DNA of 55,662 nt from Minisyncoccota bacterium. Lineage in GTDB: Bacteria > Patescibacteriota > Minisyncoccia > Phycocordibacterales > VMEP01. Location of the stretch: contig JBAZYZ010000002.1 of NCBI GenBank assembly GCA_041659085.1, forward strand, positions 1 to 55,662, in the 5' to 3' direction. Under the pieces are notes generated by a model, which was not told the DNA's origin, ran no database searches, and worked only from the letters and a program-made list of their open reading frames with translations. The position numbers were made by a program, and so were the translations under genes. Every line of letters begins with the position of its first letter. Positions within the stretch are counted from its first letter, which is position 1. Below, one piece after another: positions 15,142 to 45,057 of this stretch.

Positions 15142-15163
15142 CAAAAATGATACTAGAATAAAA

Positions 15164-15185: not shown

Positions 15186-15196
15186 AAATAAAATAT

Positions 15197-15280: not shown

Positions 15281-15290
15281 CAAAGTATAA

Positions 15291-15317
15291 AAAACGTGCT
15301 TTGGGCAGCACGTTTTT
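15291..15317 (+). terminator. Intrinsic terminator after tRNA-Leu
   Basis: aaaaCGTGCTttgggcAGCACGttttt. Confidence 0.75.
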
Positions 15318-15410
15318 AGTTTTATAGGACGGAGCACGCCGGCGCGAGTCGGGGTGCGCATAAAGCTGCGCTTTGAATGGCACGTTTTTTGTTTTACAAT
15401 ACAGTCACGT

Positions 15411-16696: not shown

Positions 16697-16716
16697 ATTT
16701 TGCTAATATATCAGAT

Positions 16717-17352: not shown

Positions 17353-17371
17353 GGCGTGTTACAATAAGGTT

Positions 17372-17923
17372 ATGCTTTACACAAGGAAGGGAGACGCGGG
17401 GACAACCGGGACGTTCGGCTGCGACCAAAGGATATCCAAGAGTTCGGCGATAGCCGAAGCGCTCGGCGCATTAGACGAGATAAACTCGCTCCTTGGGATA
17501 TGTAAAGTGAAAACTAACGGTTTGCAGCTGACAGCTAGTAACAGAAATGCGGGAGAGGTGGTGGGTGAAGTTCAACAGAACCTTTTTATCATCCAAGCGG
17601 AGATGGCGGGAGCCGAGAAGACGATTATGAAAGAAAAAGTTGAAGCGATAGAAAAAATAATTGACGATATGGAAAAAGAGCTGCCGCCCATTACGACATT
17701 TTTTGTTTCCGGAGGGACGGAGCTCGCGTCGACATTTGATTTTGCCCGCACGCTTGCGCGCCGGGCTGAGAGACGGGTTGTTCAAGTGTCTGAAGAGGGG
17801 GATAGGAAAGTCGGCGGGCACACGCTTGCGTACCTGAACCGCCTTTCAAGCCTGCTTTATGCTCTGGCTCGTTACGCTAACCACAAAACGGGGATAGAAG
17901 AAGAAAAGCCGAGTTATAAATAA
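17372..17923 (+). CDS. ATP:cob(I)alamin adenosyltransferase, PduO type
   Basis: ATG at 17372 gives MLYTRKGDAGTTGTFG.... Helical bundle ending RTLARRAERR. Confidence 0.85.
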   Translation: MLYTRKGDAGTTGTFGCDQRISKSSAIAEALGALDEINSLLGICKVKTNGLQLTASNRNAGEVVGEVQQNLFIIQAEMAGAEKTIMKEKVEAIEKIIDDMEKELPPITTFFVSGGTELASTFDFARTLARRAERRVVQVSEEGDRKVGGHTLAYLNRLSSLLYALARYANHKTGIEEEKPSYK

Positions 17924-17950
17924 TCCGCGCAAGACAAATTCGTGTTTTTA

Positions 17951-17957
17951 TTGTAGG
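17951..17957 (+). repeat. TTGTAGG motif upstream of tRNA-His
   Basis: tttttaTTGTAGGTTATtaactgttggcagttaatttatat precedes the tRNA. It shares ATTGTAGGTTAT with the tRNA-Val upstream region. Confidence 0.5.
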
Positions 17958-17985
17958 TTATTAACTGTTGGCAGTTAATTTATAT

Positions 17986-18061
17986 GGTGCCTATAGTGTA
18001 ATGGTTAGCACTAGAGATTGTGGATCTCTCAGTCTGGGTTCAAATCCCAGTAGGCACCCCA
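17986..18061 (+). tRNA. tRNA-His (anticodon GUG) with encoded G-1 and CCA
   Basis: G-1 followed by GTGCCTA/TAGGCAC acceptor, anticodon stem AGAGA/TCTCT with loop ttGTGga, T arm CTGGG-TTCAAAT-CCCAG, discriminator C, then CCA. Confidence 0.88.
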
Positions 18062-32614: not shown

Positions 32615-33172
32615 ATGCTTAATACCAAAGATCTTGCCGTCGCCGGCCTTTCGGCTTTTCTTGTAAGGCACGGCATCAGCACAGACTCGTGGGGCGTGGG
32701 AAATACAAAGACGCCCCGCCATCTTCTTGGCGAGGTCGTTGCCGGCGAGTGTGTCTTTGCCAGAACCGAAGACGGGAGACTGGTCAGAGAGATTTCCGTT
32801 CTAGGGCTTGATATTTTACGGGACGGCTTGGTGCTTGAAGAAGATTTCCAGCTTTTTTACGAGGATAATCGTCCGAGGAAAAGGAAGCTTGACTCGTCAA
32901 CAGGAGAAAAGCTCCTGCCGGGCGAGACACCGGAGCAGGCCTTGAACAGATTGGTTGAAGAGGAGTTTCCAATTTTGCGGCTTCAACCGAAAGAAAGTTT
33001 TCGCCGCATAGGGGAGAGGTTTAGGGAATCCGACAGCAAAAGCTATCCCGGACTCACTACTCGCTATCGGTTCCACTTTTTTGCCGTGGAGCTCTCAATG
33101 GAACTTCCGCCGATCACTGTTCAGGAGTCCGATAAGCTTGTGGCCTATAAGTGGGTACCTCGTCAGGGCTAA
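32615..33172 (+). CDS. Hypothetical protein with a degenerate Nudix-like box
   Basis: 185 aa. GEKLLPGETPEQALNRLVEEEF approximates GX5EX7REUXEEXGU with one extra residue. Otherwise unrecognised. Confidence 0.4.
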   Translation: MLNTKDLAVAGLSAFLVRHGISTDSWGVGNTKTPRHLLGEVVAGECVFARTEDGRLVREISVLGLDILRDGLVLEEDFQLFYEDNRPRKRKLDSSTGEKLLPGETPEQALNRLVEEEFPILRLQPKESFRRIGERFRESDSKSYPGLTTRYRFHFFAVELSMELPPITVQESDKLVAYKWVPRQG

Positions 33173-33333: not shown

Positions 33334-33993
33334 TTACAAAAAATTCTCCAGGTCAAGCAAAAAAGGAAGCTGCGGGCAATCTACGCCTACGTCCTTTTCC
33401 GTTATATTTACCAAAATGCTTTTTATGCCCAGTTTTTTCGGCACTTCATAGTCACTCATAATACGGTCACCAATGTAAAGAAACTGTTCAACGGGGAAAT
33501 TATAATATGAAAGCCATAGGGAGTAGGCTGACCCGTCGGATTTTGAAACATCATCTCCGGTGATGATGTGGTTAAACAATTCTTCCGGTATTTTTAGCGC
33601 GGAAAGTTTTTTCTCGGCGTTTGACCGGTCAGAGCCGGTGATAAGGTCCAGTCCCGCGTAACGCGATTTCAAATTATTCAGAAATACCAGAACCTTTTCA
33701 TCTTCCGGGGTAAGTACTGACGCAATATCCGCCCTTTCCAGCGCTTCCTGGACAATTTCCTTGCCATTTGGAACCTCCAGAGCCAGGAGTGTTTTGCTGC
33801 CGCTTAATCCCTTTCCGCCTAGGTAAATGTCTGTAAAGAGCTTCTTTGCTTCCGGCAGGGAAACGTTTTTGTGGCAGGCGATTTTTTGATAAATATATTG
33901 CTGTATTTTTTCGTCAACCTCAGGCATTTTGGGGTACAGGGTCTGATCAAGGTCAAAGCCTATAACTTTAATTTTTGTTTTGTAGTCAATCAT
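33334..33993 (-). CDS. HAD-superfamily phosphatase
   Basis: 219 aa. Motif I IGFDLDQTLY (DxDxT). Motif IV YIGDRIMSDY. Last gene of the four-gene operon. Confidence 0.8.
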   Translation of the reverse strand: MIDYKTKIKVIGFDLDQTLYPKMPEVDEKIQQYIYQKIACHKNVSLPEAKKLFTDIYLGGKGLSGSKTLLALEVPNGKEIVQEALERADIASVLTPEDEKVLVFLNNLKSRYAGLDLITGSDRSNAEKKLSALKIPEELFNHIITGDDVSKSDGSAYSLWLSYYNFPVEQFLYIGDRIMSDYEVPKKLGIKSILVNITEKDVGVDCPQLPFLLDLENFL

Positions 33994-34005
33994 TTTGTCG
34001 GTCTG

Positions 34006-36417
34006 TTACTTGGTGAAGGCAACATAAAAAAGCGAAAGGTTGCCTAGCGGGTACCCTAATGTTTCGCTGTATTTTGTCGCGATATAATTTAATAGATTTA
34101 TATCTTCCTTTTGCTTGCCTATTGAGTGATTCATAAACACGGCCGTAGCATGGACCTTGTCGCCCATCACGTTTGCCTGAAAGTATGCCAGATAGTCTCC
34201 CTGCGGGTCCATTTTGCCCGCTTTGTACTCGGTTAGAATCGGGTTGTTATGCATTACGCCTTTTTCTTTGAGGTAGGAAACCGCTTTTTCAATCGTGTTT
34301 ACACCTTCCATATTCTCCAGCCGGCCGAGAATTGGGTTATTCGGGCGGGAAGTTATTTTTTGGAGCGGAAGGAAGCAATAGGCAACACCAGTTTCGTTTG
34401 CTTTAGGAACCTTGGCGTTTTCCGCTAACTGATGCGGTCCGCTCTTTGAATCAATTTCATCCGCCGGTTTGGATGGCTCACCCATTAATTTTTTAGTCCG
34501 CTGCTCTTCGGTCAAAAGAAGTATGTTTGCCCGGCTTGAAAGCATATACATGTCCCCCGGTTTCGCGTGAAGCTCGTCCCTCACCGTAGAAACATAAGCG
34601 TCATATAGGCCGAAGACATTTTCCGGATAAGCGTTCACTGTATTGTGGGCGCGGGCGATGTGGAATGAATGCAGGCGCCCGTCCTCTAGGAAAAAGATGT
34701 CGTGAGTTAGGCACGGGTCGTGCGTGTATTTTGTTTTGCCGGTATCGGGGTCAACATAACTTTTCATATCTTCCACCGGGTCAAAACGCTGTATGATTGC
34801 CGCGCGGTTCGGATTTTCGCGGAGGACAAGCGCGGTTTTCGGCAGCTGGTCAAAGCCGAAGAAAACACGCGTCCGTTCGCCGTAGCTATAATCTCCGTCG
34901 TGGTCAAAGCGGAGCAGTTGGGCTTTGTAGGCGCTCCGTATCTCTTCCGTGCTCCGTTCTCCCTGCTTATACAAGGCTGGGAGGGAAGACAGGGACTTCT
35001 CCGTGTTGCGGTAGATTGCGAGCATTACGGCGGAGCGGGCCAATCCTTTTTGCTTGTCTCCATGCTCTTCGGTCAATCCCTGGGTGTATATTTTCATAAG
35101 GACTTGTTTGTGGACGTCTAAGAAATTATCTCCGTCGGCTATAAGCAAGGGCAGATTTTCCGTATTGATTTTGAAAATGTTCGCGAAATCCTGGATGAAC
35201 GCATAATCAAGCGAGGCGGCGATGGCGGCCCGCCCGATTTGCCCGCCGATGTCCAGCCTGTGCAGGATATCCATCTCGTAGTTTTCAAAGCGGTTTTTCT
35301 CAGCTATCCATTCAAAGAGTCCGCCGATTTTCGGGGAGCGGAGTTCAAAGACCTGTTCGCAGACATCAAAGGCCAGGCACATTACCGCCACCTGACCCGC
35401 TTTAACATTTATTTTGTAGTAATATTTCTTGTCGGTGATAAGGGAAATTTTTGATTCAAGCATTATTTCTTTTTCCCCGGCAATATTTCCGGATTTTACG
35501 AAAGAAGGGAATTTAATTTCGTTTTTTATTTCTGAACTTACCCGGGCAAGCTCGGCTCCGAGATATAGCTGGTCCAGTTGGCTGATTTCTTTTTTGCGTT
35601 CGCCCAGGAATTTCATCAGAGAATATTCCAAGAGGAAATCATCCGTGCTTTTTATGAAAAATGTTTCTTCTCCCAACTTGATATCAAGGCGCAATACTCC
35701 TTTTTCATTTTGTACCCGGAAAGTAACTTCGGGGATTATCTCTTTTGCCGGGATGGCTACTTTTGGCGGCTGGAGGTGCTGGAATTCTTTCGGGTCAAGC
35801 TCAACAACGCCGCGTTTTGCGGGTTCAGAGGCTCCAAGCAGCGAGACGAGTTTGTTAAGCGAGTCGTAATATATCTTTCCTTTTTCGTTCACTTCTTTTA
35901 AGAATTCATATACTTCGTCCGGCAGTCTGGGGCGCGCCCATAGAAGATAGTCCATAATGATTTTCTTGCCGTAATCATTTCTGTACATGAACATCGGCAG
36001 AACGGTTATATTTTCTCGGAAAGAATCTACGATTTCGCCGGAAAGGTTCGGATAATGCGACGAGGCGGCTCTGCCGTTTACTATGGGGTGGTCACGGTCT
36101 TCTGTGTTTACTCCATACTGGAGCGCCAGAAGCAGGTTTGTGCTCGGAGAGAATGTCAGCGATTCCTCGGAGAAGAGTATGAGATATGCGAGTGTCGGGT
36201 GAGAGAGCGAATTGAGTATCATTCTCTCGGCCCCGTCCCGGCTCACAATGAGCGAGCCTAAGACTGAGACGAAGCGGCGCTCTTTGCCTTCAAGCTCGTT
36301 TAAGACTTGGCCGGGGGCGGTGGTGTTGGTGCATATGCCTATAAAACCATCCTTGCCTTCGGGGGGGGTGAGAAGTATCGCGTCCACTATGGGGAATTGG
36401 GGGGTTTTTGCGGTCAT
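34006..36417 (-). CDS. Multidomain protein with a thymidylate-synthase/dCMP-hydroxymethylase-fold catalytic core (803 aa)
   Basis: ATG at 36415-36417 (MTAKTPQFPIV...) lies 16 nt after the upstream stop; the track ORF start at 36498 overlaps the upstream gene. ThyA-like motifs are YSYGERTR, NPNRAAIIQRFDP, DPCLTHDIFFLEDGRLHSFHIARAHN, YPEN and GDMYMLSS. Confidence 0.7.
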   Translation of the reverse strand: MTAKTPQFPIVDAILLTPPEGKDGFIGICTNTTAPGQVLNELEGKERRFVSVLGSLIVSRDGAERMILNSLSHPTLAYLILFSEESLTFSPSTNLLLALQYGVNTEDRDHPIVNGRAASSHYPNLSGEIVDSFRENITVLPMFMYRNDYGKKIIMDYLLWARPRLPDEVYEFLKEVNEKGKIYYDSLNKLVSLLGASEPAKRGVVELDPKEFQHLQPPKVAIPAKEIIPEVTFRVQNEKGVLRLDIKLGEETFFIKSTDDFLLEYSLMKFLGERKKEISQLDQLYLGAELARVSSEIKNEIKFPSFVKSGNIAGEKEIMLESKISLITDKKYYYKINVKAGQVAVMCLAFDVCEQVFELRSPKIGGLFEWIAEKNRFENYEMDILHRLDIGGQIGRAAIAASLDYAFIQDFANIFKINTENLPLLIADGDNFLDVHKQVLMKIYTQGLTEEHGDKQKGLARSAVMLAIYRNTEKSLSSLPALYKQGERSTEEIRSAYKAQLLRFDHDGDYSYGERTRVFFGFDQLPKTALVLRENPNRAAIIQRFDPVEDMKSYVDPDTGKTKYTHDPCLTHDIFFLEDGRLHSFHIARAHNTVNAYPENVFGLYDAYVSTVRDELHAKPGDMYMLSSRANILLLTEEQRTKKLMGEPSKPADEIDSKSGPHQLAENAKVPKANETGVAYCFLPLQKITSRPNNPILGRLENMEGVNTIEKAVSYLKEKGVMHNNPILTEYKAGKMDPQGDYLAYFQANVMGDKVHATAVFMNHSIGKQKEDINLLNYIATKYSETLGYPLGNLSLFYVAFTK
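34504..35136 (-). other. ThyA-fold domain within the 803-aa protein (catalytic Cys codon at 34711-34713)
   Basis: Motif-by-motif correspondence to E. coli ThyA, detailed in the findings. The Cys codon was verified on the sequence (gca on plus = TGC on minus, in the context D-P-C-L-T-H). Confidence 0.6.
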
Positions 36418-36433
36418 ATTTTTGACATGAGTT

Positions 36434-37318
36434 CTACCATTTTTTACTGGACCATTGGTTAGGCAGCAGTTCATCCAAAGTATATTGTTTGAATTCATCG
36501 GTATCTTTGGCGAAACAGTACAGATTTATGCTCAAATCGTATTTGGAACTTATTTCAGCCAAAAACTGTCGGCAACATCCGCATATTTCACAGGGTGTGT
36601 CGGTAAATTTAGTGGACACCAAACCGAGCGCGACAATTTTTGTCTTTCCGTCCATAAGGGCGAGAATTGGCGCTGCCATTTCGCTGTGTATGCCGCCACG
36701 TTTTTCAAAACTGGAATATTGTCCAGAATAATATATTACGCTGTCTTCCGTAAGCACTGCCGTACTGTAAGCACTGGCGTTGTTGTAGGTATGGAAGCAT
36801 TTGCCCAGACCCTCCACGGCGTATTTTTTTAGCTGGTCCGGTACCGGAATACTGGTTTGAAATGGCGCCTTAGATTCCGATGGGACGGCCCCCTTCACTT
36901 TCTCCAAGATATTTTGATGTGGCTTATAAAAAGGAATTATTTCGGTTACTTTTGGCACCGAAAATATTTCCTTCCCGTCAATATTTACGACCCGATATTT
37001 TATTTCTCCACCCGTGCGGACGCAAAAATCAATCATGGTTTTTACCGTAAACGGATTTACTATGAATCCTTCATCTTTTTCAACCAATGTTACGACTTCT
37101 TCCACCAGGTAGTCGCTGTGGGCTACCGCCAAAAGAAGGGCGGACTGTTCCGAAGAAATATTTAGTAGGTTAGTGTCGGAGTCAATGTTTGCTCCGCGGT
37201 ATTTTCGGCCGCTTTTTGAATAAGCTACAGTGGATGTCCTGCTGCCTACCCCAACCACTGTCTTTTTAGCAACGGCTAGCGCAAGCCCGTCTTTTAAATA
37301 AGATAGTTCATCAACCAT
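36434..37318 (-). CDS. Tandem cytidine/deoxycytidylate-deaminase-fold protein (degenerate N-terminal domain, catalytic C-terminal domain)
   Basis: 294 aa. The C-terminal domain has HSE (H211, E213) and PCEIC (C243, C246) zinc and catalytic motifs, followed by GCCRQF. The N-terminal domain keeps only SSEQSA and has no PCxxC. Confidence 0.75.
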   Translation of the reverse strand: MVDELSYLKDGLALAVAKKTVVGVGSRTSTVAYSKSGRKYRGANIDSDTNLLNISSEQSALLLAVAHSDYLVEEVVTLVEKDEGFIVNPFTVKTMIDFCVRTGGEIKYRVVNIDGKEIFSVPKVTEIIPFYKPHQNILEKVKGAVPSESKAPFQTSIPVPDQLKKYAVEGLGKCFHTYNNASAYSTAVLTEDSVIYYSGQYSSFEKRGGIHSEMAAPILALMDGKTKIVALGLVSTKFTDTPCEICGCCRQFLAEISSKYDLSINLYCFAKDTDEFKQYTLDELLPNQWSSKKW

Positions 37319-37319
37319 A

Positions 37320-38213
37320 TTATAGATTGCTTCTTAGTTTGCTGACGCTCAGCTGAGCCACTTCCCAATCATAATGAAGGGTTTTTTTGATGAAGTCATT
37401 CAAGAGGTGGATCTTGTCTCTTTCAAGACGGGGATACATCTTCTCCGATTTCTTGCTGGTTAATCTGATAGTGGGAACGAAAGATACGGGGAAAGCGTAA
37501 TACGGCAGAAGCGGATGCCTTTCCGATTCGGGCTCTACCAGTATGGCGGTGATGGGTTTACCTAGTTTTTCTATGGCGTAATCAATGCGGTGCGCTCCGT
37601 CGCAGACGATGTAGAAGTCTTGCTTGCCGGTGTATCTTAGCCCGTAGTTTATAATCGGCGCGTTTGAATTGAAGACATCCAGATAATCAAGTTTGCTGAC
37701 TTCGTCAATGTAGAATGAATTCAGGAATCTTTTTGAAAGATTGTGCAGGTTATTGCGCGCGTCGGCTGTATACGTATCCGCGAATCGCTTGCTTATTTTA
37801 TCAAGGTCAAGATACCCCGCCCTCAGTTCATAGGTATGTTTCTCAATAATAGGCGGCAATATGTGGAAATCACCGCGCCCCTCCCAATTATATTGCAACC
37901 CGTTTTTCAAATCGTTTATCCGCATTTTGTGCGCGCGGAGAAACTTATCCACGGTATCAAAAACTTCCAGCTGATTTTCATATATTGTCGGTTGGGGGGT
38001 AAAGAGGTTGTGTCTTTTGTCGTCAACGGCTATTTTGGGCGATTGCCCTATTTTCTGGGGTGGATGTATTGTGACTAATTTGAATTTCGCTTTTGCGTAT
38101 GGTTTTAGCGCCGTGCCCTTCTTGTCAAAGAGCCCACGGAAGGCTACTTTCCGCATCATGGACGTAAGTTGGTCAAAGGGAATGACTCCTTTCAAGACTA
38201 GCTTTTCTTTCAT
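37320..38213 (-). CDS. ParB/sulfiredoxin-fold domain protein
   Basis: 297 aa. FYIVCDGAHRIDYAIEKLG carries DGxHR, with codons 37587-37601 verified on the sequence. Its stop is 1 nt from the next gene's start. Confidence 0.6.
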   Translation of the reverse strand: MKEKLVLKGVIPFDQLTSMMRKVAFRGLFDKKGTALKPYAKAKFKLVTIHPPQKIGQSPKIAVDDKRHNLFTPQPTIYENQLEVFDTVDKFLRAHKMRINDLKNGLQYNWEGRGDFHILPPIIEKHTYELRAGYLDLDKISKRFADTYTADARNNLHNLSKRFLNSFYIDEVSKLDYLDVFNSNAPIINYGLRYTGKQDFYIVCDGAHRIDYAIEKLGKPITAILVEPESERHPLLPYYAFPVSFVPTIRLTSKKSEKMYPRLERDKIHLLNDFIKKTLHYDWEVAQLSVSKLRSNL

Positions 38214-38292
38214 TGTCTAAATATATAGGGAAGTCGACCGTGTTGCAAACCCGCCAATATGCCATGAAATCCCATTTTCCCGCCCAATCTGC

Positions 38293-38298
38293 TACAAT
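38293..38298 (+). promoter_or_regulatory. -10 box (TACAAT) 7 nt upstream of the dut ATG, in the divergent intergenic region
   Basis: ctgcTACAATgtttttATG. Confidence 0.45.
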
Positions 38299-38305
38299 GT
38301 TTTTT

Positions 38306-38734
38306 ATGAAAATAACCTTAAGAGTTAAGCGTCTTTCGGAGGAGACAAAGTTGCCTGCGTATGCGTATCCGGGGGACGCGGCATTTGACTTATTGGCCGT
38401 GGAAGAGGCGGGACTTGCGCCCGGAGAAAGGAAAGATATTCCCACCGGACTCTCTATTGAGATTCCTGAAGGTTACGCCGGGCTTATCTGGGACAAAAGC
38501 GGAATAGCAATCAAGAATGGCGTTAAAGTGCTGGGCGGCGTTATAGATGCCGGTTACCGCGGCGAGGTCAGAGTAGGGGTTGTAAACTTGAGCGAAGAGC
38601 CTTATGTGTTTGAAAAAGGACATAAAGTCGCGCAGATGATCATTCAGAAGATTGAGCAGGCGGACATTGTTGAGGTGGAAGAATTGAGCGAGACCGACAG
38701 GGGGGGCAGGGGTTTTGGCAGTTCCGGAAAATAA
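38306..38734 (+). CDS. dut: dUTP diphosphatase (trimeric dUTPase)
   Basis: ATG at 38306 gives MKITLRVKRLSEETKLPAYAYPGDAAFDL.... Also GVIDAGYRGEV and RGGRGFGSSG motif V. Confidence 0.92.
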   Translation: MKITLRVKRLSEETKLPAYAYPGDAAFDLLAVEEAGLAPGERKDIPTGLSIEIPEGYAGLIWDKSGIAIKNGVKVLGGVIDAGYRGEVRVGVVNLSEEPYVFEKGHKVAQMIIQKIEQADIVEVEELSETDRGGRGFGSSGK

Positions 38735-38744
38735 TTTGAAACAA

Positions 38745-39932
38745 ATGAAAGACGGGCAAGTCAAAAGGCTTATTAAGGAAGAGGAGGGCAGACAGAAGTC
38801 CGTTGTGAATTTGATTGCCTCGGAAAACTACGTATCCCGGGATGTATTAGAGGCACTGGGTTCGGTTTTAACAAACAAATACTCCGAAGGGTATCCGGGC
38901 AAGAGATATTATGGCGGGAACACTGTCGTTGACAGGGTTGAGAGATTGGCGGGCGAAAGGGCTCTGAAACTTTTTGGCCTGGCTCATGGTAAATGGCATG
39001 TGAATGTTCAGCCGCTTTCCGGTTCGCCGGCTAATCTGGCTGTTTATGTCGCGCTTGTCCCACCAGGCGGGAAAATTATGGGAATGACTTTGTCCGAAGG
39101 GGGACACTTGACTCACGGGCACAAAGTTTCGGTTACCGGAAAATTTTGGAAACAAGTGCCGTTTGGCGTTGACCCAAAAACGGAAACTATAAATTATAGC
39201 GAGATTAAAAAGATTGCGCTCAAGGAAAAGCCGAGTATCATTGTCGCCGGATTTACGGCTTACCCGCGCGTGATTGATTTCAAAAAATTTCGCGATATCG
39301 CCCGGGCCGCAGGCGCGCTTCTGATGGTGGACATGTCGCACTTTGCCGGGCTTGTAGCCGGAGGCGCTTACCCGTCGCCATTTCTTTACGCTGATATTGT
39401 TACGACAACGATGCACAAGACGCTTCGCGGGCCAAGGGGCGCGATGATTTTTGTCCGCCGGCAAAAGACGAAAGAAGGCAAAGAAATGAGCGAGCTCATA
39501 GACAGGGCGGTATTTCCCGGACTCCAGGGTGGCCCCCATGACAATCAGACTGCGGCAATAGCGGTGGCGCTTAAAGAAGCCGGCACCCCATCTTTCAAAA
39601 TATATGCCAAGCAGGTGGTAAAAAACGCGAGAGCGCTCTCGGATGAACTGAAAAATCTCGGCTGGAAAATAATTTCCGGCGGGACGGACAGCCATTTGAT
39701 TTTGATGGACGTCTGGATGGGTGGAAGAGGTTTAAGCGGAAGTGAAGCCAGCAACAGACTGGAGAAGGCGGGCATCATCGTCAATAAAAATACAATCCCC
39801 GGGGAAACCCGCTCGGCTTTTGACCCCTCCGGCATACGGCTCGGCACTCCGGCCGAGACGACACTGGGCAAAAAGGAGAAAGACATGATAAAAATCGCCC
39901 GAAAAATTGATTCGGTTTTGAGGGGGAAATAG
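38745..39932 (+). CDS. glyA: Serine hydroxymethyltransferase
   Basis: ATG at 38745 (a TTG at 38715 would overlap dut). LIASENY, VQPLSGSPAN, TTTMHKTLRGPRG with the PLP lysine. Confidence 0.93.
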   Translation: MKDGQVKRLIKEEEGRQKSVVNLIASENYVSRDVLEALGSVLTNKYSEGYPGKRYYGGNTVVDRVERLAGERALKLFGLAHGKWHVNVQPLSGSPANLAVYVALVPPGGKIMGMTLSEGGHLTHGHKVSVTGKFWKQVPFGVDPKTETINYSEIKKIALKEKPSIIVAGFTAYPRVIDFKKFRDIARAAGALLMVDMSHFAGLVAGGAYPSPFLYADIVTTTMHKTLRGPRGAMIFVRRQKTKEGKEMSELIDRAVFPGLQGGPHDNQTAAIAVALKEAGTPSFKIYAKQVVKNARALSDELKNLGWKIISGGTDSHLILMDVWMGGRGLSGSEASNRLEKAGIIVNKNTIPGETRSAFDPSGIRLGTPAETTLGKKEKDMIKIARKIDSVLRGK

Positions 39933-41592: not shown

Positions 41593-44500
41593 ATGGAAGA
41601 AAAGCATAAAGAGAAGAATTCACGGGAAGTAAAAAAATCAGAAGTGGCGCTTGCGGAAGAGCGCATTTTGGCCAATTGGCAAAAAAAAGGGATACATCAA
41701 AAAATTATGGATAAAACCCGTGAGGGGAAGCCGTTTGTTTTTTATGATGGACCGCCTTTTGCCACCGGCGAGCCGCATTACGGGCATGTTCTGGCGGGGA
41801 CCATTAAGGATACAATCCCAAGGTATCGGACCATGATGGGGCATTATGTAAGGCGGCAGTGGGGTTGGGATTGTCATGGTTTGCCGCTTGAAAACATAAT
41901 TGAAAAAGAGCTAAAGCTTGAGCACAAGAAAGACATTGAGGAATATGGCATAGAAAATTTCAACGAAGCGGCGCGTAAAGCGGTTCTACGCTTTGATTCA
42001 AACTGGAAAGAAATAATTCCCCGGATGGGGCGGATGGTGGATATGGACTTGTCGTATAAGACGATGGACGCCACTTATAGCGAATCAATCTGGTGGGCTT
42101 TTAAGACGCTTTACGACAAAGGCTTGATATATGAGGGGCATAAAATAATGTACGTTTGCCCGAGGTGCGAAACGCCTCTCGCTCAGATTGAGGTCGCTCA
42201 GGGTTATAAAGACGTGACTGACATATCCGTTACTGTGAAGTTTGAATTGTCCGCCGATCCGGGGGTTTACCTGCTCGCTTGGACCACGACGCCGTGGACA
42301 TTGCCCGGGAATACGGCGCTTGCTGTTAATCCCGACATTGAGTACGTGAAAGTAAGGGTTGACGGGGAATACTATATTTTGGCCAAGGACCGTCTTTTAA
42401 TACTGAATACCGAATACGAGATACTGAGCACCTTCCATGGACGCGAACTCGTTGGCAAATCATATATTCCTCCGTTTGATTATTATGTGAATGATAACGA
42501 AATTGAAAACCACAACAGAGGTTGGAAAATTTACGGCGCGGATTTCGTAACCGCGGACAGCGGCACCGGCATCGCCCACGAAGCTCCGGCTTTCGGCGCT
42601 GAGGATATGGAGCTCTCAAAAAAGGAAAATATTCCGGTCATTCAGCATGTCTCCATGGACGGCAAGTTTAAACCGGAGGTGAAGGATTTCGCGGGACAAT
42701 ACGTGAAGCAGAAAGGGGACACCCAATCAGCAGACATAGAAGTAATAAAATATTTGGCGCATAAAGGCTTACTGTTCAGCAAAGAAAAAATTGTTCACTC
42801 GTATCCCTTGTGCTGGAGATGCGACACTCCGCTTCTAAACTACGCCACTCCGTCTTGGTTTGTGAAGACGACGGCTATAAGCGATAGAGTAGTTTCAGAA
42901 AATAAGAAAGTTGGCTGGATCCCGGAGCATATAGGCGGTGGACGCTTTGGCAAATGGCTTGAGAACCCGCGCGACTGGGCGATTTCCCGTTCCAGGTTCT
43001 GGGGTGCTCCGCTTCCCATATGGAAATGCGCCGAATGCGAAAAAGTCGACGCTTTCGGAAGCGTGGCTGAGCTTTCGGAGAAGGTTCCCCCGTCCGGTAA
43101 TCGCTATATCGTTATCCGGCACGGTCAGTCTGAAAGCAATGCTTTGGGCATGGTCAACTGTGACCCATTCAAGGAGGACCATGTGACGGACAAAGGCAGA
43201 GGGCAGGTAGAAGAGGCGGCAGAACAGTTAAAAAAGGATGGGATAAAAATAGACAGGATCATCTCGTCGGATTTTATGCGTACCCGCGAAACCGCGGAGA
43301 TGGTTGCCGAAATACTTGACGTTCCCGCCGAACACATTGTTTTTGACCCGCGGTTCCGCGAGATAAACACAGGTATCTTCCACGACAAAACTCGCGCCGA
43401 ATATCATGATTTCTTCGTTTCATACGCCGAAAAATTTAAAAAGACGCCGAAGGGAGGAGAAAATTTGCTTGATGTGAAGCGACGCGTTCTCCTGGGTGTC
43501 GGAGACCTTGAAAAAACTTATCGCGGCGAGACAATACTTATTGTCACTCACGAATATGCGGCTTGGATGCTCGCTTCTGCGGCTAAGGGCGCCACAATAG
43601 AGGAGTCTGTCCGGATGAAAAGCGAACGTGGGGAGGATTTTCTGGGGAATGCCGAAACAGAAGAACTAAAATGGAAGCTTATACCGAGGAACAGGGTGGG
43701 CGAGCTTGATTTGCACCGCCCGTATATAGACGAGATTGTTTACGACTGTTCCTGTGGCGGAACGATGAGGCGAATCCCCGACGTGTTTGACTGCTGGTTT
43801 GAGTCCGGTTCCATGCCCTATGCCCAGTTCCACTATCCGTTTGAGAACGAGAAGGAGTTCAGAAGGAATTTCCCGGCTGATTTTATCGCCGAAGGGATGG
43901 ACCAGACTCGCGGCTGGTTTTACAGCCTGCTGATTCTGGGTGTCGGGCTTTTCGGCGAGTCGCCATACAAAAATGTCATCGTAAACGGAATTATTCTCGC
44001 TGAAGACGGGCAGAAGATGTCCAAGCGCCTGAAGAATTATCCCGACCCGATTGAAGTGGTCAACAGATACGGGGCCGACTCCCTGCGCTACTTCCTTTTG
44101 TCGTCTCCTCTTATGCGTGGTGAGGACGTAAGCTTTTCGGAGAAAGGAGTGGATGAGGTCTATAAGAAAAATATCGCTCGTTTGAATAATGTTTATGCTT
44201 TTTATGAACTCTATCGCGGAGCGGAAGAGGGGAATGCGGATTCAAAAAATATTTTGGACAGATGGATTTTGGCAAGACTGAGTCAGATGATTAACGAAAC
44301 AACCTCCGCGCTGGATTCATATGAGCTCGACAGGGCTACAAAGCCAATCGGCGAATTTATAGACGACCTTTCCACGTGGTATATACGGCGTTCACGCGAA
44401 CGGTTCAAGGGGGATGACGAGGCGGATAAAAAATCCGCGCTTGAGACGACAAATTACACGCTTATGGAACTTTCAAAAGTCGTCGCGCCGTTTATGCCGT

Positions 44501-45057
44501 TTATCGCCGACGACTTGTATCTGAAAGTGGCTGGCGGCAAAAAAGAGGAGAGTGTGCATCTAGAGAAGTGGCCGGAAGCGAAGGAATTAAATGATGAAAG
44601 CAGGGAAATAATAGAGGAAATGAGAAAAGCTCGAGAGGTTGTTTCATTGGGACTGGAAGAGCGTGCTAAGCATGGAATTAAAGTACGGCAACCCCTTCGC
44701 ATGTTAAGTACAACAGCTGCTTTTTCTGACGGGTATAATATTATTATTGGGGAGGAGCTCAATGTTAAAGAGGTCAAGTGGGACAAGAATCTGCCTACCA
44801 TTCTCGCACTTGATGTTGAAATTACTCAGGAACTCAAAGAAGAGGGCAACGTGCGCGACATAATCCGCGCCATTCAGGAATTCAGGAAGAATGAGGGACT
44901 TACTCCAAATGATAAAGTGGCCATTGAAATTTCCGCGCCCAAAGAAACAATCGCGCTTGTTGAAAAACACGGAGGGGAACTTAAAAAAGCCGCCATGCTT
45001 ACGGGCATAGAGGTCAAAACAGGAAAAGAGATTTCTTTTGTTGTCTTGAGAAAATGA
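41593..45057 (+). CDS. ileS: Isoleucine--tRNA ligase (type 2) carrying an inserted histidine-phosphatase domain
   Basis: 1154 aa. PPFATGEPHYGHVLAG (HIGH), CP1 editing domain TTPWTLPGN, KMSKRLKN. About 200 extra aa lie between PIWKCAEC and DLHRPYID. Confidence 0.93.
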   Translation: MEEKHKEKNSREVKKSEVALAEERILANWQKKGIHQKIMDKTREGKPFVFYDGPPFATGEPHYGHVLAGTIKDTIPRYRTMMGHYVRRQWGWDCHGLPLENIIEKELKLEHKKDIEEYGIENFNEAARKAVLRFDSNWKEIIPRMGRMVDMDLSYKTMDATYSESIWWAFKTLYDKGLIYEGHKIMYVCPRCETPLAQIEVAQGYKDVTDISVTVKFELSADPGVYLLAWTTTPWTLPGNTALAVNPDIEYVKVRVDGEYYILAKDRLLILNTEYEILSTFHGRELVGKSYIPPFDYYVNDNEIENHNRGWKIYGADFVTADSGTGIAHEAPAFGAEDMELSKKENIPVIQHVSMDGKFKPEVKDFAGQYVKQKGDTQSADIEVIKYLAHKGLLFSKEKIVHSYPLCWRCDTPLLNYATPSWFVKTTAISDRVVSENKKVGWIPEHIGGGRFGKWLENPRDWAISRSRFWGAPLPIWKCAECEKVDAFGSVAELSEKVPPSGNRYIVIRHGQSESNALGMVNCDPFKEDHVTDKGRGQVEEAAEQLKKDGIKIDRIISSDFMRTRETAEMVAEILDVPAEHIVFDPRFREINTGIFHDKTRAEYHDFFVSYAEKFKKTPKGGENLLDVKRRVLLGVGDLEKTYRGETILIVTHEYAAWMLASAAKGATIEESVRMKSERGEDFLGNAETEELKWKLIPRNRVGELDLHRPYIDEIVYDCSCGGTMRRIPDVFDCWFESGSMPYAQFHYPFENEKEFRRNFPADFIAEGMDQTRGWFYSLLILGVGLFGESPYKNVIVNGIILAEDGQKMSKRLKNYPDPIEVVNRYGADSLRYFLLSSPLMRGEDVSFSEKGVDEVYKKNIARLNNVYAFYELYRGAEEGNADSKNILDRWILARLSQMINETTSALDSYELDRATKPIGEFIDDLSTWYIRRSRERFKGDDEADKKSALETTNYTLMELSKVVAPFMPFIADDLYLKVAGGKKEESVHLEKWPEAKELNDESREIIEEMRKAREVVSLGLEERAKHGIKVRQPLRMLSTTAAFSDGYNIIIGEELNVKEVKWDKNLPTILALDVEITQELKEEGNVRDIIRAIQEFRKNEGLTPNDKVAIEISAPKETIALVEKHGGELKKAAMLTGIEVKTGKEISFVVLRK
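43090..43700 (+). other. Histidine phosphatase (PGAM/CobC-like) domain inserted in IleRS
   Basis: RYIVIRHGQSESN (RHG codons 43117-43125, in frame). ...ISSDFMRTRETA... ILIVTHEYAAWML is the second catalytic His motif. Confidence 0.75.

What the first reader, a model, noticed from the sequence alone, without database searches (positions are those of the whole stretch)
33334..39932. ParB/Srx-fold, tandem deaminase-fold, giant ThyA-fold and HAD genes in one tight operon, divergent from dut-glyA: candidate non-canonical pyrimidine C5-modification or thymidylate pathway
Four minus-strand genes (38213 down to 33334) are separated by only 1, 16 and 12 nt, so they form one transcription unit. They share a 92-nt divergent promoter region with dut and glyA. 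dut (dUTPase) makes dUMP. glyA (SHMT) makes 5,10-methylene-THF, the one-carbon donor of ThyA-family enzymes.

By fold, every member touches pyrimidine nucleotides:
- a CTP/ATP-using ParB/sulfiredoxin fold;
- a zinc cytidine/dCMP-deaminase fold;
- a ThyA/dCMP-hydroxymethylase fold;
- a HAD phosphatase.

None of them has a canonical architecture, and the ThyA-like core is buried inside an 803-aa protein.

A coherent reading is C-to-U deamination, dUTP to dUMP, C5 one-carbon transfer, then dephosphorylation. That would be either a lineage-specific replacement for thymidylate synthesis or salvage, or synthesis of a modified pyrimidine nucleoside or nucleotide. Comparable cases are phage hm-dC/hm-dU modules and CMP-hydroxymethylase pathways of nucleoside antibiotics. 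I know of no described system with this gene set.
Basis: partly seen in the sequence, partly recalled or inferred. Interest (0 to 1): 0.9.

Follow-up and report, generated by a model that had tools for sequence, protein, structure and literature searches.

The report
Conserved deaminase–ThyA-like–HAD–ParB-CE pyrimidine operon
Four tightly packed genes in this ultra-small (CPR) bacterium form a real, strongly conserved operon built around an unusual thymidylate-synthase-like enzyme; the same uncharacterised module also occurs in DPANN archaea, many free-living bacteria and some phages, and it probably makes thymidylate or a related C5-modified pyrimidine by a non-standard route.

Summary
Four minus-strand genes (gaps of 1, 16 and 12 nt) encode a ParB-CE family protein, a tandem cytidine deaminase with one live site, and an 803-aa ThyA-superfamily protein. 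The fourth encodes a HAD phosphatase.

The same block, in the same order, occurs in 55 species-level genomes: 43 CPR bacteria and 12 DPANN archaea. Natural ThyA-like+HAD and deaminase+ThyA-like fusions exist.

The block is a derived form of a wider module: C-to-U deaminase (dCMP deaminase or Dcd), HAD, ParB-CE and a ~490-aa ThyA-like protein. That module occurs in Magnetococcales, Armatimonadota, Desulfobaccales, cultured Desulfofundulus and metagenomic phages.

All ParB-CE-linked ThyA-likes keep the equivalents of Cys146, Arg166, Asn177 and Tyr94. They have Asn for Asp169 and lack His207/Tyr209, so they form a distinct clade.

dut/glyA adjacency is CPR-lineage synteny, not part of the core.

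Best reading (confidence about 0.5): a self-contained line from cytosine nucleotides to dUMP to a C5 one-carbon product, probably dTMP, with HAD and ParB-CE handling the phosphates.

A modified pyrimidine product is not excluded. I found no experimental description of the module.

The parts
37320..38213 (-). ParB-CE family protein (297 aa), first gene of the operon. It carries the LPPIIE, CDGAHRxD and PYYAFP motifs. It has a ~75-residue insertion relative to ~200-aa ParB-CE proteins.
   Evidence: Pfam PF24392 hits in 30/30 family members. hhalign against bona fide ParB-CE gives E 1e-19 over the full length. Motifs are conserved at >=95% in 47 orthologues. The AF2 model has pLDDT 85 but no significant whole-fold match in PDB or BFVD.
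36434..37318 (-). Tandem cytidine-deaminase-fold protein (294 aa). The N-terminal half is a pseudo-domain: it keeps Glu57 but has no zinc ligands. The C-terminal half is catalytic (His211, Glu213, Cys246, Cys249).
   Evidence: NCBIfam cytidine deaminase models at 4.5e-12. PDB B. subtilis CDA at 2e-6, with alignments to both halves. H211/E213/C246/C249 are >=95% conserved in 49 orthologues.
34006..36417 (-). 803-aa multidomain ThyA-superfamily protein. The ORF runs upstream to 36498, but homologues start at the ATG at 36417.
   Evidence: 169 homologues at E<=0.001 (best 120 listed), 53-86% identical over the full length. Mean column identity is 62%. AF2 pLDDT is 84.
35803..36417 (-). Residues 1-205: MtrA-like Rossmann-type domain. 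It lacks the cobamide-ligating histidine.
   Evidence: Pfam and NCBIfam MtrA hits. The family profile hits MtrA structures at 6e-4. The MtrA 'EVQGH' stretch is 'ESLTF' here.
35458..35802 (-). Residues 206-320: beta3-alpha2 domain with no detectable relatives.
   Evidence: AF2 secondary structure. No Pfam hit. hhalign controls against the other domains are negative.
35176..35457 (-). Residues 321-414: PterinBD-DUF4346-like domain.
   Evidence: Pfam PF14251 hit on the equivalent stretch of fusion homologue P0245, with clear hits in distant long forms P0272 and P0275.
34453..35175 (-). Residues 415-655: catalytic ThyA-like domain. Tyr512, Cys569 (nt 34711-34713), Arg589 and Asn600 correspond to E. 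coli Y94, C146, R166 and N177. Asn592 replaces D169. 'SRANIL' replaces the H207/Y209 motif.
   Evidence: TIGR03283 at 1e-13. Foldseek finds ThyA-fold structures at 1e-7. hhalign and MAFFT residue mapping. These residues are invariant in 30 homologues.
34009..34452 (-). Residues 656-803: degenerate second ThyA-like half-domain. It has Gln739 at the Cys position, His-Asn-Asn at the Arg126/127 position and no Arg166 equivalent. It probably acts as an intramolecular stand-in for the second subunit of a ThyA dimer.
   Evidence: hhalign against a profile of 88 ThyA-core sequences gives probability 95.7%, E 8.6e-9, over 94 collinear columns. The same test with the MtrA-like and 206-320 domains is negative. 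Secondary-structure order matches.
33334..33993 (-). HAD-IA phosphatase (219 aa), last gene of the operon. All four HAD motifs are intact (DLDQT and the rest).
   Evidence: Pfam HAD_2 at 2e-11. Best NCBIfam hits are TIGR02253 (CTE7), pyrimidine 5'-nucleotidase and YjjG, all below cutoff. Motifs are >=95% conserved in 49 orthologues. It is fused to the ThyA-like protein in P0247.
38214..38305 (.). 92-nt divergent intergenic region. A promoter-like site for the operon lies at 38249-38220 on the minus strand.
   Evidence: This is a consensus match only.
38306..38734 (+). dut (dUTPase). A lineage-specific neighbour, not part of the conserved core.
   Evidence: NCBIfam dUTP diphosphatase at 8e-44. 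Adjacent in 19/43 CPR loci and 1/12 DPANN loci.
38745..39932 (+). glyA (serine hydroxymethyltransferase). A lineage-specific neighbour.
   Evidence: Pfam SHMT at 3e-160. Adjacent in 15/43 CPR loci and 0/12 DPANN loci.
32615..33172 (+). NUDIX hydrolase, convergent with the HAD gene. A semi-conserved neighbour.
   Evidence: Pfam NUDIX at 6e-7. The same gene lies directly beyond HAD in 14 CPR loci.

Best explanation
The four genes are one operon that encodes a self-contained pyrimidine conversion line, probably working as a complex.

1. The tandem deaminase has one live zinc site and one dead half. It converts a cytosine (deoxy)nucleoside or nucleotide to the uracil form.
2. The 803-aa protein attacks C6 of the uracil ring with Cys569 and adds a one-carbon unit at C5. 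Asn600 is the uracil-type specificity residue. The MtrA-like and DUF4346 domains are elsewhere tied to pterin enzymes. They most likely hold the folate-type donor. The dead C-terminal ThyA half-domain replaces the second subunit of the usual homodimer.
3. The HAD phosphatase and the NTP-binding ParB-CE protein set the phosphorylation state of the substrate. Most likely they strip dCTP or dUTP down to the monophosphate that the deaminase and ThyA-like enzyme need.

The net result is cytosine nucleotides to dUMP to dTMP, a thymidylate supply line for organisms that live on scavenged nucleotides.

Shown here: the operon, its conservation, the folds, the intact catalytic residues and the gene fusions. 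Inferred: the substrates, the order of steps, the role of ParB-CE and the identity of the product.

The CPR/DPANN version is a derived form of a module widespread in bacteria and phages. It has tandem CDA in place of dCMP deaminase or Dcd, and an enlarged ThyA-like protein.
For: **Operon and conservation**
- Gaps are 1, 16 and 12 nt.
- The order ParB-CE > CDA > ThyA-like > HAD is kept in 43 CPR and 12 DPANN genomes. DPANN proteins are 43-47% identical over the full length.
- Among CPR loci, CDA is present in 39/43, ParB-CE in 39/43 and HAD in 37/43. Among DPANN loci the counts are 9/12, 9/12 and 12/12. Most loci missing a partner lie on contigs that end close to the block.
- DPANN loci lie in different genomic surroundings.

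**Physical and functional coupling**
- P0247 is a ThyA-like+HAD fusion, seen on 4 contigs. P0245 is a CDA+ThyA-like fusion.

**Catalytic competence**
- ThyA fold confirmed.
- Equivalents of Y94, C146, R166 and N177 are invariant.
- The deaminase H/E/C/C set and all HAD motifs are >=95% conserved.

**Wider module**
- Magnetococcales carry ThyA-like, HAD, ParB-CE and Dcd in one operon.
- Armatimonadota and others carry dCMP deaminase, HAD, ParB-CE and ThyA-like.
- Cultured Desulfofundulus thermobenzoicus (L110) has glyA, dCMP deaminase, HAD, ParB-CE and ThyA-like.
- A 286-kb viral contig has HAD, ParB-CE, dCMP deaminase and ThyA-like.
- Three different C-to-U deaminase families fill the same slot. 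This argues that a uracil deoxynucleotide is the substrate.

**Thymidylate context of relatives**
- The 'classic' relative P0286 sits in the operon dut, dCMP deaminase, MtrA-ThyA-DUF4346, glyA, folD.
- In the module, HAD+ParB-CE occupy the slot that dut holds there.

**Precedents**
- A HAD plus '-CE' phosphoesterase pair has been shown to run dNTP to dNDP to dNMP (PMC12871103).
- The ParB fold is a general NTP-binding module (PMC12704722).

**Housekeeping setting**
- The block lies between secE-nusG-rplK and argS/ileS, with uniform GC.
- There are no PADLOC hits.
Against: - **Non-canonical active site.** Every ParB-CE-linked ThyA-like has Asn at the Asp169 position and lacks His207/Tyr209. From my own knowledge, Asp169 contacts the pterin ring and engineered D169N is badly impaired. 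Such mutant chains (1bjg/1dna) are the second-best PDB sequence match of the bacterial profile. Canonical CH2-THF chemistry, and hence dTMP as product, is not assured.
- **Below family cutoffs.** The protein scores below the cutoffs of all ThyA models: TIGR03283 gives 51 bits against a cutoff of 174, and there is no Pfam PF00303 hit.
- **Deaminase type.** It is of the nucleoside (CDA) type, whereas ThyA enzymes use monophosphates. That fits a nucleotidase-deaminase-kinase route at least as well.
- **A separate dut exists.** It lies next to the block in many CPR loci, so a dUTP-stripping role for HAD/ParB-CE is not needed there.
- **No activity known for ParB-CE.** It is often found with the ThyA-like gene alone, without HAD. 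This could mean it is an activator rather than an enzyme.
- **Weak link to C1 supply.** Outside CPR, glyA is nearby in only 1/82 loci.
- **Untested.** I could not check whether genomes with the module lack thyA or thyX.
Confidence: 0.5

Rival explanations
1. Same enzymes, but the line runs at the nucleoside level. HAD acts as a 5'-nucleotidase (dCMP to deoxycytidine). The tandem CDA deaminates the nucleoside to deoxyuridine. ParB-CE acts as a small-molecule kinase that re-phosphorylates it (or thymidine), replacing thymidine kinase. The ThyA-like enzyme then methylates it.
For: - The deaminase is clearly of the cytidine (nucleoside) deaminase type.
- The best HAD matches are pyrimidine 5'-nucleotidase and YjjG models.
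- ParB-fold small-molecule kinases exist: SerK and SbnI (PMC12704722).
- This route uses all four CPR genes in one linear path.
- The canonical 5'-phosphate contacts are weakened in the CPR form. S167 becomes Ala, R127 becomes Ala, and the partner domain offers His-Asn-Asn instead of Arg-Arg.
Against: - Bacterial and viral versions pair the same HAD and ParB-CE with dCMP deaminase or dCTP deaminase. Neither needs a nucleoside detour.
- Arg166 and Arg126 equivalents are kept.
- The route costs ATP for no net gain.
Confidence: 0.2
2. The module makes a non-canonical pyrimidine nucleotide before replication, for example 5-hydroxymethyl-dUMP or another C5-substituted dUMP. This would resemble the phage SPO1 and T4 modules. 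The deaminase raises dUMP, the ThyA-like enzyme modifies it, ParB-CE phosphorylates the product or removes the competing canonical dNTP, and HAD removes dTMP or dUMP.
For: - The gene set parallels phage hm-dU/hm-dC modules: deaminase, ThyA-fold enzyme, nucleotidase and NTP-handling enzyme (established knowledge of T4 and SPO1).
- The module occurs in metagenomic phages, including a 286-kb contig.
- D169N and loss of H207/Y209 define a separate ThyA clade.
- The top Foldseek hits are a phage flavin-dependent dCMP hydroxylase of ThyA fold (9iqu/9iqc). This shows the fold supports other C5 chemistry.
- ParB-like partners are required by phage thymine dioxygenases (PMC13229309).
Against: - The block sits in conserved housekeeping synteny in CPR. 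It is conserved across all sampled Magnetococcales species.
- No glycosyltransferase, dedicated polymerase or other hypermodification gene lies nearby.
- No cellular organism is known to make hm-dU before replication.
- There is no match in 50,697 GenBank phages.
- Sequence alone cannot separate a methylase from a hydroxymethylase.
Confidence: 0.2
3. It is a nucleotide-targeting immune ('conflict') system. ParB-CE and HAD would be effectors that degrade nucleotides. The ThyA-like and deaminase parts would sense or neutralise phage-modified nucleotides.
For: - The ParB-like protein belongs to the Pfam family named ParB 'conflict effector'. The meaning of 'CE' is stated in PMC12871103.
- From memory, the family comes from Nicastro et al. 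2023 (NAR), which I could not read.
- HAD plus '-CE' effector pairs deplete dNTPs in a proven defence system.
- ParB-CE also occurs alone in phage-like contigs.
Against: - None of the four proteins hits PADLOC.
- The block is fixed at one housekeeping position across CPR lineages. It is kept in genomes as small as ~0.6-1 Mb.
- It is inherited vertically across Magnetococcales species rather than scattered in islands.
- All four enzymes keep biosynthetic-type active sites.
Confidence: 0.07
4. It is a secondary-metabolite pathway of the nucleoside-antibiotic type, like MilA/MilB for mildiomycin or BcmA-D for bacimethrin. It would make a free 5-hydroxymethyl pyrimidine base or nucleoside.
For: - A ThyA-fold enzyme together with a phosphatase could release a modified nucleoside.
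- CMP 5-hydroxymethylase (MilA) structures appear among the weak PDB sequence hits of the bacterial profile.
Against: - The specificity residue is Asn (uracil type), not the Asp of cytosine-specific enzymes.
- There is no N-glycosidase of the MilB/BcmB type in any locus.
- The module occurs in minimal symbiont genomes within a housekeeping context.
Confidence: 0.03

Closest known systems
Classical thymidylate operons (dut, dCMP deaminase, thyA, glyA, folD), here represented by locus L067 with a 519-aa MtrA-ThyA-DUF4346 protein
   Same: - It has a C-to-U deaminase next to a ThyA-superfamily enzyme with MtrA-like and DUF4346 domains.
- glyA and dut are nearby in CPR loci.
- The nucleophile Cys, Arg166, Asn177 and Tyr94 are kept.
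   Different: - The window's enzyme is 803 aa, with an extra domain and a dead second ThyA half-domain.
- It has D169N and lacks H207/Y209.
- The deaminase is a tandem CDA rather than a dCMP deaminase.
- HAD and ParB-CE are added, and folD is absent.
Phage pre-replicative pyrimidine modification modules: T4 gp42 dCMP hydroxymethylase with gp56 dCTPase, Cd deaminase and gp1 kinase; SPO1 dUMP hydroxymethylase set
   Same: - It combines a ThyA-fold C5 enzyme, a cytosine deaminase and phosphate-handling enzymes.
- The module also occurs in phage contigs.
   Different: - The partner families differ: ParB-CE and HAD rather than MazG-type or trimeric dUTPase-type enzymes and a P-loop kinase.
- The module is chromosomal, in housekeeping synteny, in cells.
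- The specificity residue is uracil-type.
- The product is unknown.
PUA-Calcineurin-CE-HAD anti-phage system (PMC12871103)
   Same: A HAD phosphatase is paired with a protein of a '-CE' (conflict effector) family. That pair was shown to run dNTP to dNDP to dNMP, which is the model adopted here for HAD+ParB-CE.
   Different: - The effector fold differs (calcineurin-like rather than ParB).
- The HAD found here did not hit PADLOC.
- There is no sensor domain.
- This module is coupled to biosynthetic enzymes and has housekeeping conservation.
E. coli-type dimeric cytidine deaminase (Cdd, 294 aa; PDB 1af2/1ctt)
   Same: The length is the same. It has two CDA-fold halves, only one of which carries the zinc site, giving a pseudo-tetramer logic.
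   Different: - The order is reversed: dead half first, live half second.
- Similarity is closer to the small tetrameric CDAs, at 2e-6, than to Cdd at 0.18.
- It is sometimes fused to the ThyA-like protein.
ParB-fold enzymes and activators: SerK and SbnI serine kinases, sulfiredoxin, and the ParB-like activator of phage thymine dioxygenases (PMC12704722, PMC13229309)
   Same: - It has the DGxHR-type ParB/Srx core.
- It is a stand-alone protein with no HTH or dimerisation domain.
- It is partnered with an enzyme that modifies pyrimidine C5.
   Different: - ParB-CE is a separate family.
- It gives no significant Foldseek match to any solved ParB/Srx structure.
- The CPR form has a ~75-residue insertion.
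- No activity has been tested.
Phage HY126 AfhB dCMP hydroxylase (PDB 9iqu/9iqc)
   Same: It is the best structural match of the ThyA-like domain (E 1e-7, target TM 0.64-0.71). It is a minimal ThyA fold that carries out non-folate C5 chemistry.
   Different: - It shows no sequence-level similarity; it is absent from the PDB sequence hits.
- AfhB acts on dCMP with a flavin.
- No flavin-binding evidence was found here.

Membership tests
Thymidylate synthase ThyA superfamily (PF00303 / TIGR03283) | ThyA alpha/beta fold | tested here: met
   Foldseek of the AF2 model against PDB gives ThyA and ThyA-fold enzymes at E 1e-7 to 2e-6, probability 1.0, target TM 0.5-0.7.
Thymidylate synthase ThyA superfamily (PF00303 / TIGR03283) | Catalytic nucleophile Cys146, with Arg166, Asn177 and Tyr94 | tested here: met
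   Cys569, Arg589, Asn600 and Tyr512 are invariant in 30 homologues and present in the DPANN and bacterial forms.
Thymidylate synthase ThyA superfamily (PF00303 / TIGR03283) | Score above the curated family cutoff | tested here: not met
   TIGR03283 gives 51 bits against a cutoff of 174.6. There is no PF00303 hit for the window protein. Bacterial relatives also fall below cutoff.
Canonical dTMP-forming ThyA (functional class) | Asp169, the pterin contact needed for cofactor activation | tested here: not met
   Asn592 is invariant. All ParB-CE-linked relatives have Asn (two viral-contig loci, L074 and L075, have Arg), whereas classic relatives keep Asp. The role of Asp169 is from my own knowledge.
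Canonical dTMP-forming ThyA (functional class) | His207/Tyr209 contacts to the 3'-OH of dUMP | tested here: not met
   CPR/DPANN forms have 'SRANIL' and bacterial/viral forms have 'SHSISID' in place of 'GDTHLY'/'SAHIY'.
Canonical dTMP-forming ThyA (functional class) | Homodimer with Arg126'/Arg127' donated by the partner subunit | tested here: inconclusive
   The catalytic domain has Arg-Ala at this position. A dead ThyA half-domain in the same chain offers His-Asn-Asn. Oligomeric state cannot be tested here.
Canonical dTMP-forming ThyA (functional class) | Formation of dTMP from dUMP and CH2-THF | not testable with these tools
   This needs an enzyme assay or complementation.
ParB-CE (Pfam PF24392) | Full-length profile match and family motifs (LPPIVE, DGxHR, PYYAYP) | tested here: met
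   hhalign of the CPR family against 19 bona fide ParB-CE proteins gives probability 99.2%, E 1e-19, over 193 columns. Pfam hits 30/30 members. The window protein alone scores 17.8 bits against a cutoff of 23.
ParB/Srx (ParB-CTPase) fold | Structural match to solved ParB or sulfiredoxin domains | tested here: inconclusive
   Only insignificant local matches were found: sulfiredoxin 2rii, Atu1540 2hwj and pNOB8 ParB-N, all with E>2. BFVD behaved the same way.
ParB/Srx (ParB-CTPase) fold | NTP binding or hydrolysis | not testable with these tools
The motif is conserved.
Cytidine deaminase (CDA) family | Zinc site (H/C)AE...PCxxC with the catalytic Glu | tested here: met
   The C-terminal half has His211-x-Glu213 and Cys246-x-x-Cys249-Arg-Gln, >=95% conserved. 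The N-terminal half lacks the zinc ligands.
Cytidine deaminase (CDA) family | Score above the curated equivalog cutoffs | tested here: not met
   TIGR01354 gives 46 bits against a cutoff of 114. Pfam dCMP_cyt_deam_1 gives 14 bits against a cutoff of 25.
HAD superfamily, subfamily IA phosphatases | Motifs I-IV (DxDxT, S/T, K, GDxxxD) and a Pfam match above cutoff | tested here: met
   HAD_2 scores 44.6 bits against a cutoff of 23.8. Motifs are >=95% conserved.
MtrA (tetrahydromethanopterin S-methyltransferase subunit A) | Cobamide-ligating histidine and a score above cutoff | tested here: not met
   Scores are below cutoff (16.9 bits against 25). The 'EVQGH' histidine is absent ('ESLTF'). The resemblance is of fold only.
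Known anti-phage defence systems (PADLOC-DB) | Any component matching a defence-system model | tested here: not met
   No hits for any of the four proteins at E<=0.1.

The most novel reading that the evidence does not exclude
The ParB-CE-linked ThyA clade (natural D169N, no H207/Y209) is not an ordinary thymidylate synthase. Together with ParB-CE and HAD it would be one of two things. It could be a third, mechanistically distinct route to thymidylate. Or it could be a cellular pre-replicative pathway to a non-canonical pyrimidine such as 5-hydroxymethyl-dU. Either would operate in CPR bacteria, DPANN archaea, several free-living bacterial orders and their phages.
Probability: 0.25. Interest if true: 0.9.

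Novelty: new variant of a known kind. Interest (0 to 1): 0.66.

Why it matters
- **Central metabolism.** Thymidylate synthesis is a textbook two-solution problem (ThyA or ThyX) and a drug target.
- **What is new here.** A distinct, widely distributed ThyA clade always travels with a ParB-fold protein, a HAD phosphatase and a C-to-U deaminase. It carries a substitution (D169N) that cripples canonical enzymes.
- **If it makes dTMP.** The system would reveal a new way of running or feeding the reaction. It would also give the ParB-CE 'conflict effector' family a housekeeping role.
- **If it makes something else.** Cellular organisms, including the ultra-small CPR and DPANN symbionts, would make a modified pyrimidine before replication.
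- **Annotation.** JGI labels some of these 800-aa proteins 'thymidylate synthase' and others 'hypothetical protein', and NCBI labels them 'hypothetical protein', so metabolic reconstructions may treat this protein inconsistently.
- **Testability.** Cultured carriers exist (Desulfofundulus thermobenzoicus DSM 14055 and Desulfacinum infernum DSM 9756), so the question can be tested directly.

Tried and rejected
- **Chance adjacency:** rejected by 55 syntenic loci across two domains of life.
- **dut/glyA as core members:** rejected. Both are essentially absent from DPANN loci, and glyA from bacterial loci too.
- **Cobamide-binding MtrA function:** the ligand histidine is absent.
- **Whole-fold match for the ParB-like protein:** none found in PDB or BFVD.
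- **Defence system:** no PADLOC hits.
- **PHROGs:** only a thymidylate synthase hit and a weak HAD hit.
- **Cultured phages:** tblastn of the viral ThyA-like and ParB-CE proteins against 50,697 GenBank phages found nothing.
- **Domain 206-320:** profile comparisons against the other domains were negative.
- **First test of the C-terminal domain:** against the CPR-only ThyA profile it was weak (E 0.02). It became significant only with a diverse ThyA profile.
- **Literature:** ten searches found no description of this gene set.
  - The paper that defined the '-CE' families (Nicastro et al. 2023, PMC10681802) is not held. I could not check whether it already discusses ParB-CE next to ThyA-like genes.
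- **thyA/thyX absence:** I could not test whether carriers lack them, because only +-10 kb around each hit is readable.

Full report
**1.

The window carries four minus-strand ORFs:
- 37320-38213 (297 aa)
- 36434-37318 (294 aa)
- 34006-36498
- 33334-33993 (219 aa)

Homologues of the third protein all begin at the position of the internal ATG at 36417.

The first gene starts 92 nt from the dut ATG (38306). A -35/-10-like site for the minus strand lies at 38249-38220. Such sites are not enriched in the region, so this is only compatible with a divergent promoter.

GC content is even across the window. The flanks are housekeeping genes: secE-nusG-rplK and a NUDIX gene on one side, and dut, glyA, argS and ileS on the other.

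**2. What the four proteins are**

*HAD.* This is an ordinary subfamily-IA phosphatase.
- Pfam HAD_2 scores 2e-11.
- The best NCBIfam neighbours are TIGR02253, pyrimidine 5'-nucleotidase and YjjG, all below cutoff.
- All catalytic motifs are conserved.

*The 294-aa protein.* It has two cytidine-deaminase-fold halves.
- Only the C-terminal half has the zinc site and catalytic Glu (His211, Glu213, Cys246, Cys249). These are >=95% conserved in 49 orthologues.
- The N-terminal half keeps a Glu but has no ligands.
- The logic resembles the tandem E. coli Cdd, with the order of live and dead halves reversed.

*The 297-aa protein.* It is a full-length member of Pfam ParB-CE.
- Alone it scores below cutoff (0.0034).
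- All 30 homologues hit the family.
- A profile-profile comparison with 19 bona fide ParB-CE proteins gives E 1e-19 over 193 columns. It also reveals a ~75-residue insertion in the CPR/DPANN form.
- Its AlphaFold model is confident (pLDDT 85). It has no significant match in PDB or BFVD, only scattered local matches around the DGxHR motif to sulfiredoxin and ParB domains.

*The 803-aa protein.* It is highly conserved (53-86% identity over the full length among the 120 listed homologues; mean column identity 62%). Its model is good (pLDDT 84). It has five parts.
1. Residues 1-205: an MtrA-like domain that lacks the cobamide-ligating histidine.
2. Residues 206-320: a domain with no relatives.
3. 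Residues 321-414: a PterinBD-DUF4346-like domain.
4. Residues 415-655: a ThyA-fold catalytic domain.
   - TIGR03283 scores 1e-13.
   - Foldseek matches ThyA-fold structures at 1e-7. The top hits are the phage dCMP hydroxylase AfhB, followed by many thymidylate synthases.
5. Residues 656-803: a degenerate second ThyA-like half-domain.
   - hhalign against a diverse ThyA profile gives probability 95.7% and E 8.6e-9.
   - Controls with the other domains are negative.
   - It has Gln at the nucleophile position and His-Asn-Asn where ThyA has Arg126/Arg127.

I infer that this dead copy stands in for the second subunit of the normal ThyA homodimer. That would mirror the live/dead arrangement of the deaminase.

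**3. Active-site reading**

Residues were mapped onto E. coli ThyA.
- Kept and invariant: Tyr94, Cys146, Arg166 and Asn177, which correspond to Tyr512, Cys569, Arg589 and Asn600. Asn at position 177 is the uracil-type residue; cytosine-specific enzymes have Asp.
- Changed: Asp169 is Asn592. The 'GDTHLY' motif with His207/Tyr209, which holds the sugar 3'-OH, is 'SRANIL'.

From my own knowledge, Asp169 contacts the pterin ring and engineered D169N enzymes are badly impaired. Consistent with this, the second-best PDB sequence match of the related bacterial profile is the engineered E. coli chain with Asn at that position (1bjg/1dna).

**4. Conservation**

*Other genomes.* A scan of one genome per species found 55 loci. 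Of these, 43 are CPR and 12 are DPANN archaea (Woesearchaeota, Nanoarchaeota, Iainarchaeum). The DPANN proteins are 43-47% identical over the full length.

*Gene order.* Local searches of the flanks show ParB-CE > CDA > ThyA-like > HAD in nearly every locus with enough sequence.

| Partner | CPR loci | DPANN loci |
|---|---|---|
| CDA | 39/43 | 9/12 |
| ParB-CE | 39/43 | 9/12 |
| HAD | 37/43 | 12/12 |

One locus is permuted.

*Flanking genes.* dut (19/43), glyA (15/43), the NUDIX gene (14/43), argS and nusG-rplK recur in CPR loci. They are essentially absent from DPANN loci (dut 1/12, glyA 0/12). They therefore mark CPR synteny rather than the functional core.

*Fusions.* Two natural fusions tie the enzymes together.
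- P0247 is ThyA-like+HAD. It is seen on four contigs in a DPANN-like context.
- P0245 is tandem CDA+ThyA-like. It is seen on one contig, so it is tentative.

**5. The block is a derived form of a wider module**

*Distant long forms.* P0272 and P0266 sit next to strong ParB-CE genes (Pfam 4e-42). In one case a HAD orthologue is also present.

*Magnetococcales.* Starting from ParB-CE itself led to a Magnetococcales operon: ThyA-like(492 aa)-HAD-ParB-CE-dCTP deaminase.

*Viral contigs.* One 286-kb contig carries HAD-ParB-CE-dCMP deaminase-ThyA-like(500 aa).

*Bacterial scan.* A scan with these ~490-aa proteins found 170 relatives. The 79 best genomic loci, plus three viral-contig loci scored alongside them (82 in all), show several arrangements.
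- Magnetococcales: ThyA-like-HAD-ParB-CE-Dcd.
- Armatimonadota and others: dCMP deaminase-HAD-ParB-CE-ThyA-like.
- Cultured Desulfofundulus thermobenzoicus: glyA-dCMP deaminase-HAD-ParB-CE-ThyA-like.
- Desulfacinum: deaminase fusion-ThyA-like-HAD.
- Desulfobacca: ThyA-like-ParB-CE.
- Many Desulfobaccales: the ThyA-like gene alone.

Across the 82 loci, ParB-CE is present in 39, HAD in 31, dCMP deaminase in 17 and Dcd in 12.

*Shared signature.* All of these proteins share one pattern. Tyr94, Arg126, Cys146, Arg166 and Asn177 are kept. Asp169 is replaced by Asn. 'SHSISID' stands in place of the His207/Tyr209 motif.

*Classic relatives.* These keep Asp, His and Tyr. One of them (P0286) lies in a textbook operon: dut-dCMP deaminase-ThyA-glyA-folD, with no HAD or ParB-CE.

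*Conclusion.* The ParB-CE-linked enzymes form a separate clade of the ThyA superfamily. The changed active-site positions go together with the two extra partners.

**6. How it most likely works**

Three unrelated C-to-U deaminase families (tandem CDA, dCMP deaminase, Dcd) fill the same slot next to a uracil-type ThyA-like enzyme. The common intermediate is therefore almost certainly a uracil deoxynucleotide that receives a one-carbon unit at C5.

HAD and ParB-CE are the constant extras.
- 'CE' stands for conflict effector.
- A HAD plus Calcineurin-CE pair has been shown to run dNTP to dNDP to dNMP (PMC12871103).
- The ParB fold is a versatile NTP-binding module that also serves as the ATP site of small-molecule kinases (PMC12704722).
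- In module operons, HAD+ParB-CE occupy the place that dut holds in the classic operon.

I therefore favour a feeder role, in which they strip dCTP or dUTP to the monophosphate. The net flow would be cytosine nucleotides to dUMP to dTMP.

This reading fits organisms that live on scavenged nucleotides. It also fits the housekeeping position of the block. Confidence is about 0.5.

The steps actually shown are the operon, its conservation, the folds, the intact catalytic residues and the fusions. The substrates, their order and the product are inferred.

**7. Rivals**

- **(a) Nucleoside-level route (0.2).** HAD nucleotidase, then CDA, then ParB-CE kinase, then ThyA-like. It fits the CDA type and the weakened phosphate contacts of the CPR form. 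It is unnecessary in the bacterial versions.
- **(b) Pre-replicative synthesis of a modified pyrimidine such as 5-hm-dUMP (0.2).** It is favoured by the phage parallels, the D169N clade signature and the presence of the module in phage contigs. Against it are the housekeeping conservation and the lack of any further modification genes.
- **(c) Nucleotide-targeting immune system (0.07).** It is suggested by the family name. It is disfavoured by the absence of PADLOC hits and by vertical, fixed-position inheritance.
- **(d) Nucleoside-antibiotic-type pathway (0.03).**
- **Chance adjacency** is excluded.

**8. Novelty and limits**

I found no experimental or descriptive account of this gene set in ten literature searches. 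The paper that defined the '-CE' families is not in the library. Prior computational mention therefore cannot be ruled out.

I could not test whether carriers lack thyA or thyX. That is the single most informative missing computation.

The finding is a new variant of a known kind: thymidylate or dNMP-modifying modules. About one chance in four remains that the chemistry or product is new.

Noticed in passing
window 41593-45057 (+): The isoleucyl-tRNA synthetase (1154 aa) carries a histidine-phosphatase (His_Phos_1, RHG motif) domain. It is inserted at residues 506-675, between the two halves of the catalytic domain. The same architecture is seen in loci L003 and L004, so it is conserved in related CPR.
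   Followed up: partly
window 32615-33172 (+): A NUDIX hydrolase gene is convergent with the HAD gene. The same gene lies directly beyond HAD in 14 of the CPR loci. It may be a loose fifth partner that handles nucleoside di- or triphosphates.
   Followed up: partly
L046 7176-7883 (-): In one DPANN genome a SMODS-associated NUDIX (Sa_NUDIX) gene is inserted on the opposite strand, between the deaminase and the ThyA-like gene. Loci L054 and L059 have gaps of similar size that I did not examine.
   Followed up: partly
window 36418-36498 (-): The ORF of the 803-aa protein extends 27 codons upstream and overlaps the end of the deaminase gene. Homologue N-termini show that the real start is the ATG at 36417.
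   Followed up: yes
L070 6001-6594; L071 6986-7591: ParB-CE genes also occur without a ThyA-like neighbour in phage-like contigs. In L070 the gene sits next to terminase and portal genes. In L071 it sits near a dCMP deaminase and a phosphoribosyltransferase with a weak PRTase-CE hit.
   Followed up: partly
L134 6113-7762; L143 6128-7777: In Desulfacinum the dCMP deaminase next to the ThyA-like gene lies in a 550-codon stop-to-stop frame (start codon not determined), with a ~350-residue upstream stretch of unknown nature. No separate ParB-CE was detected there.
   Followed up: no
L069 5312-6004; L073 6318-7001: The HAD partners in the Magnetococcales locus (L069) and the viral locus (L073) read D-I-G-x-T in motif I, with Gly in place of the second Asp. 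The CPR/DPANN HAD has the canonical DLDQT. This hints at different phosphatase chemistry or substrate.
   Followed up: no
window 26600-28336 (+); 21102-23405 (+); 7124-18061: Other contents of the window include a PIF1-like helicase fused to an HTH_40 domain and a heavy-metal P-type ATPase. There are also seven tRNA genes: three Arg, and one each of Ser, Val, Leu and His.
   Followed up: no
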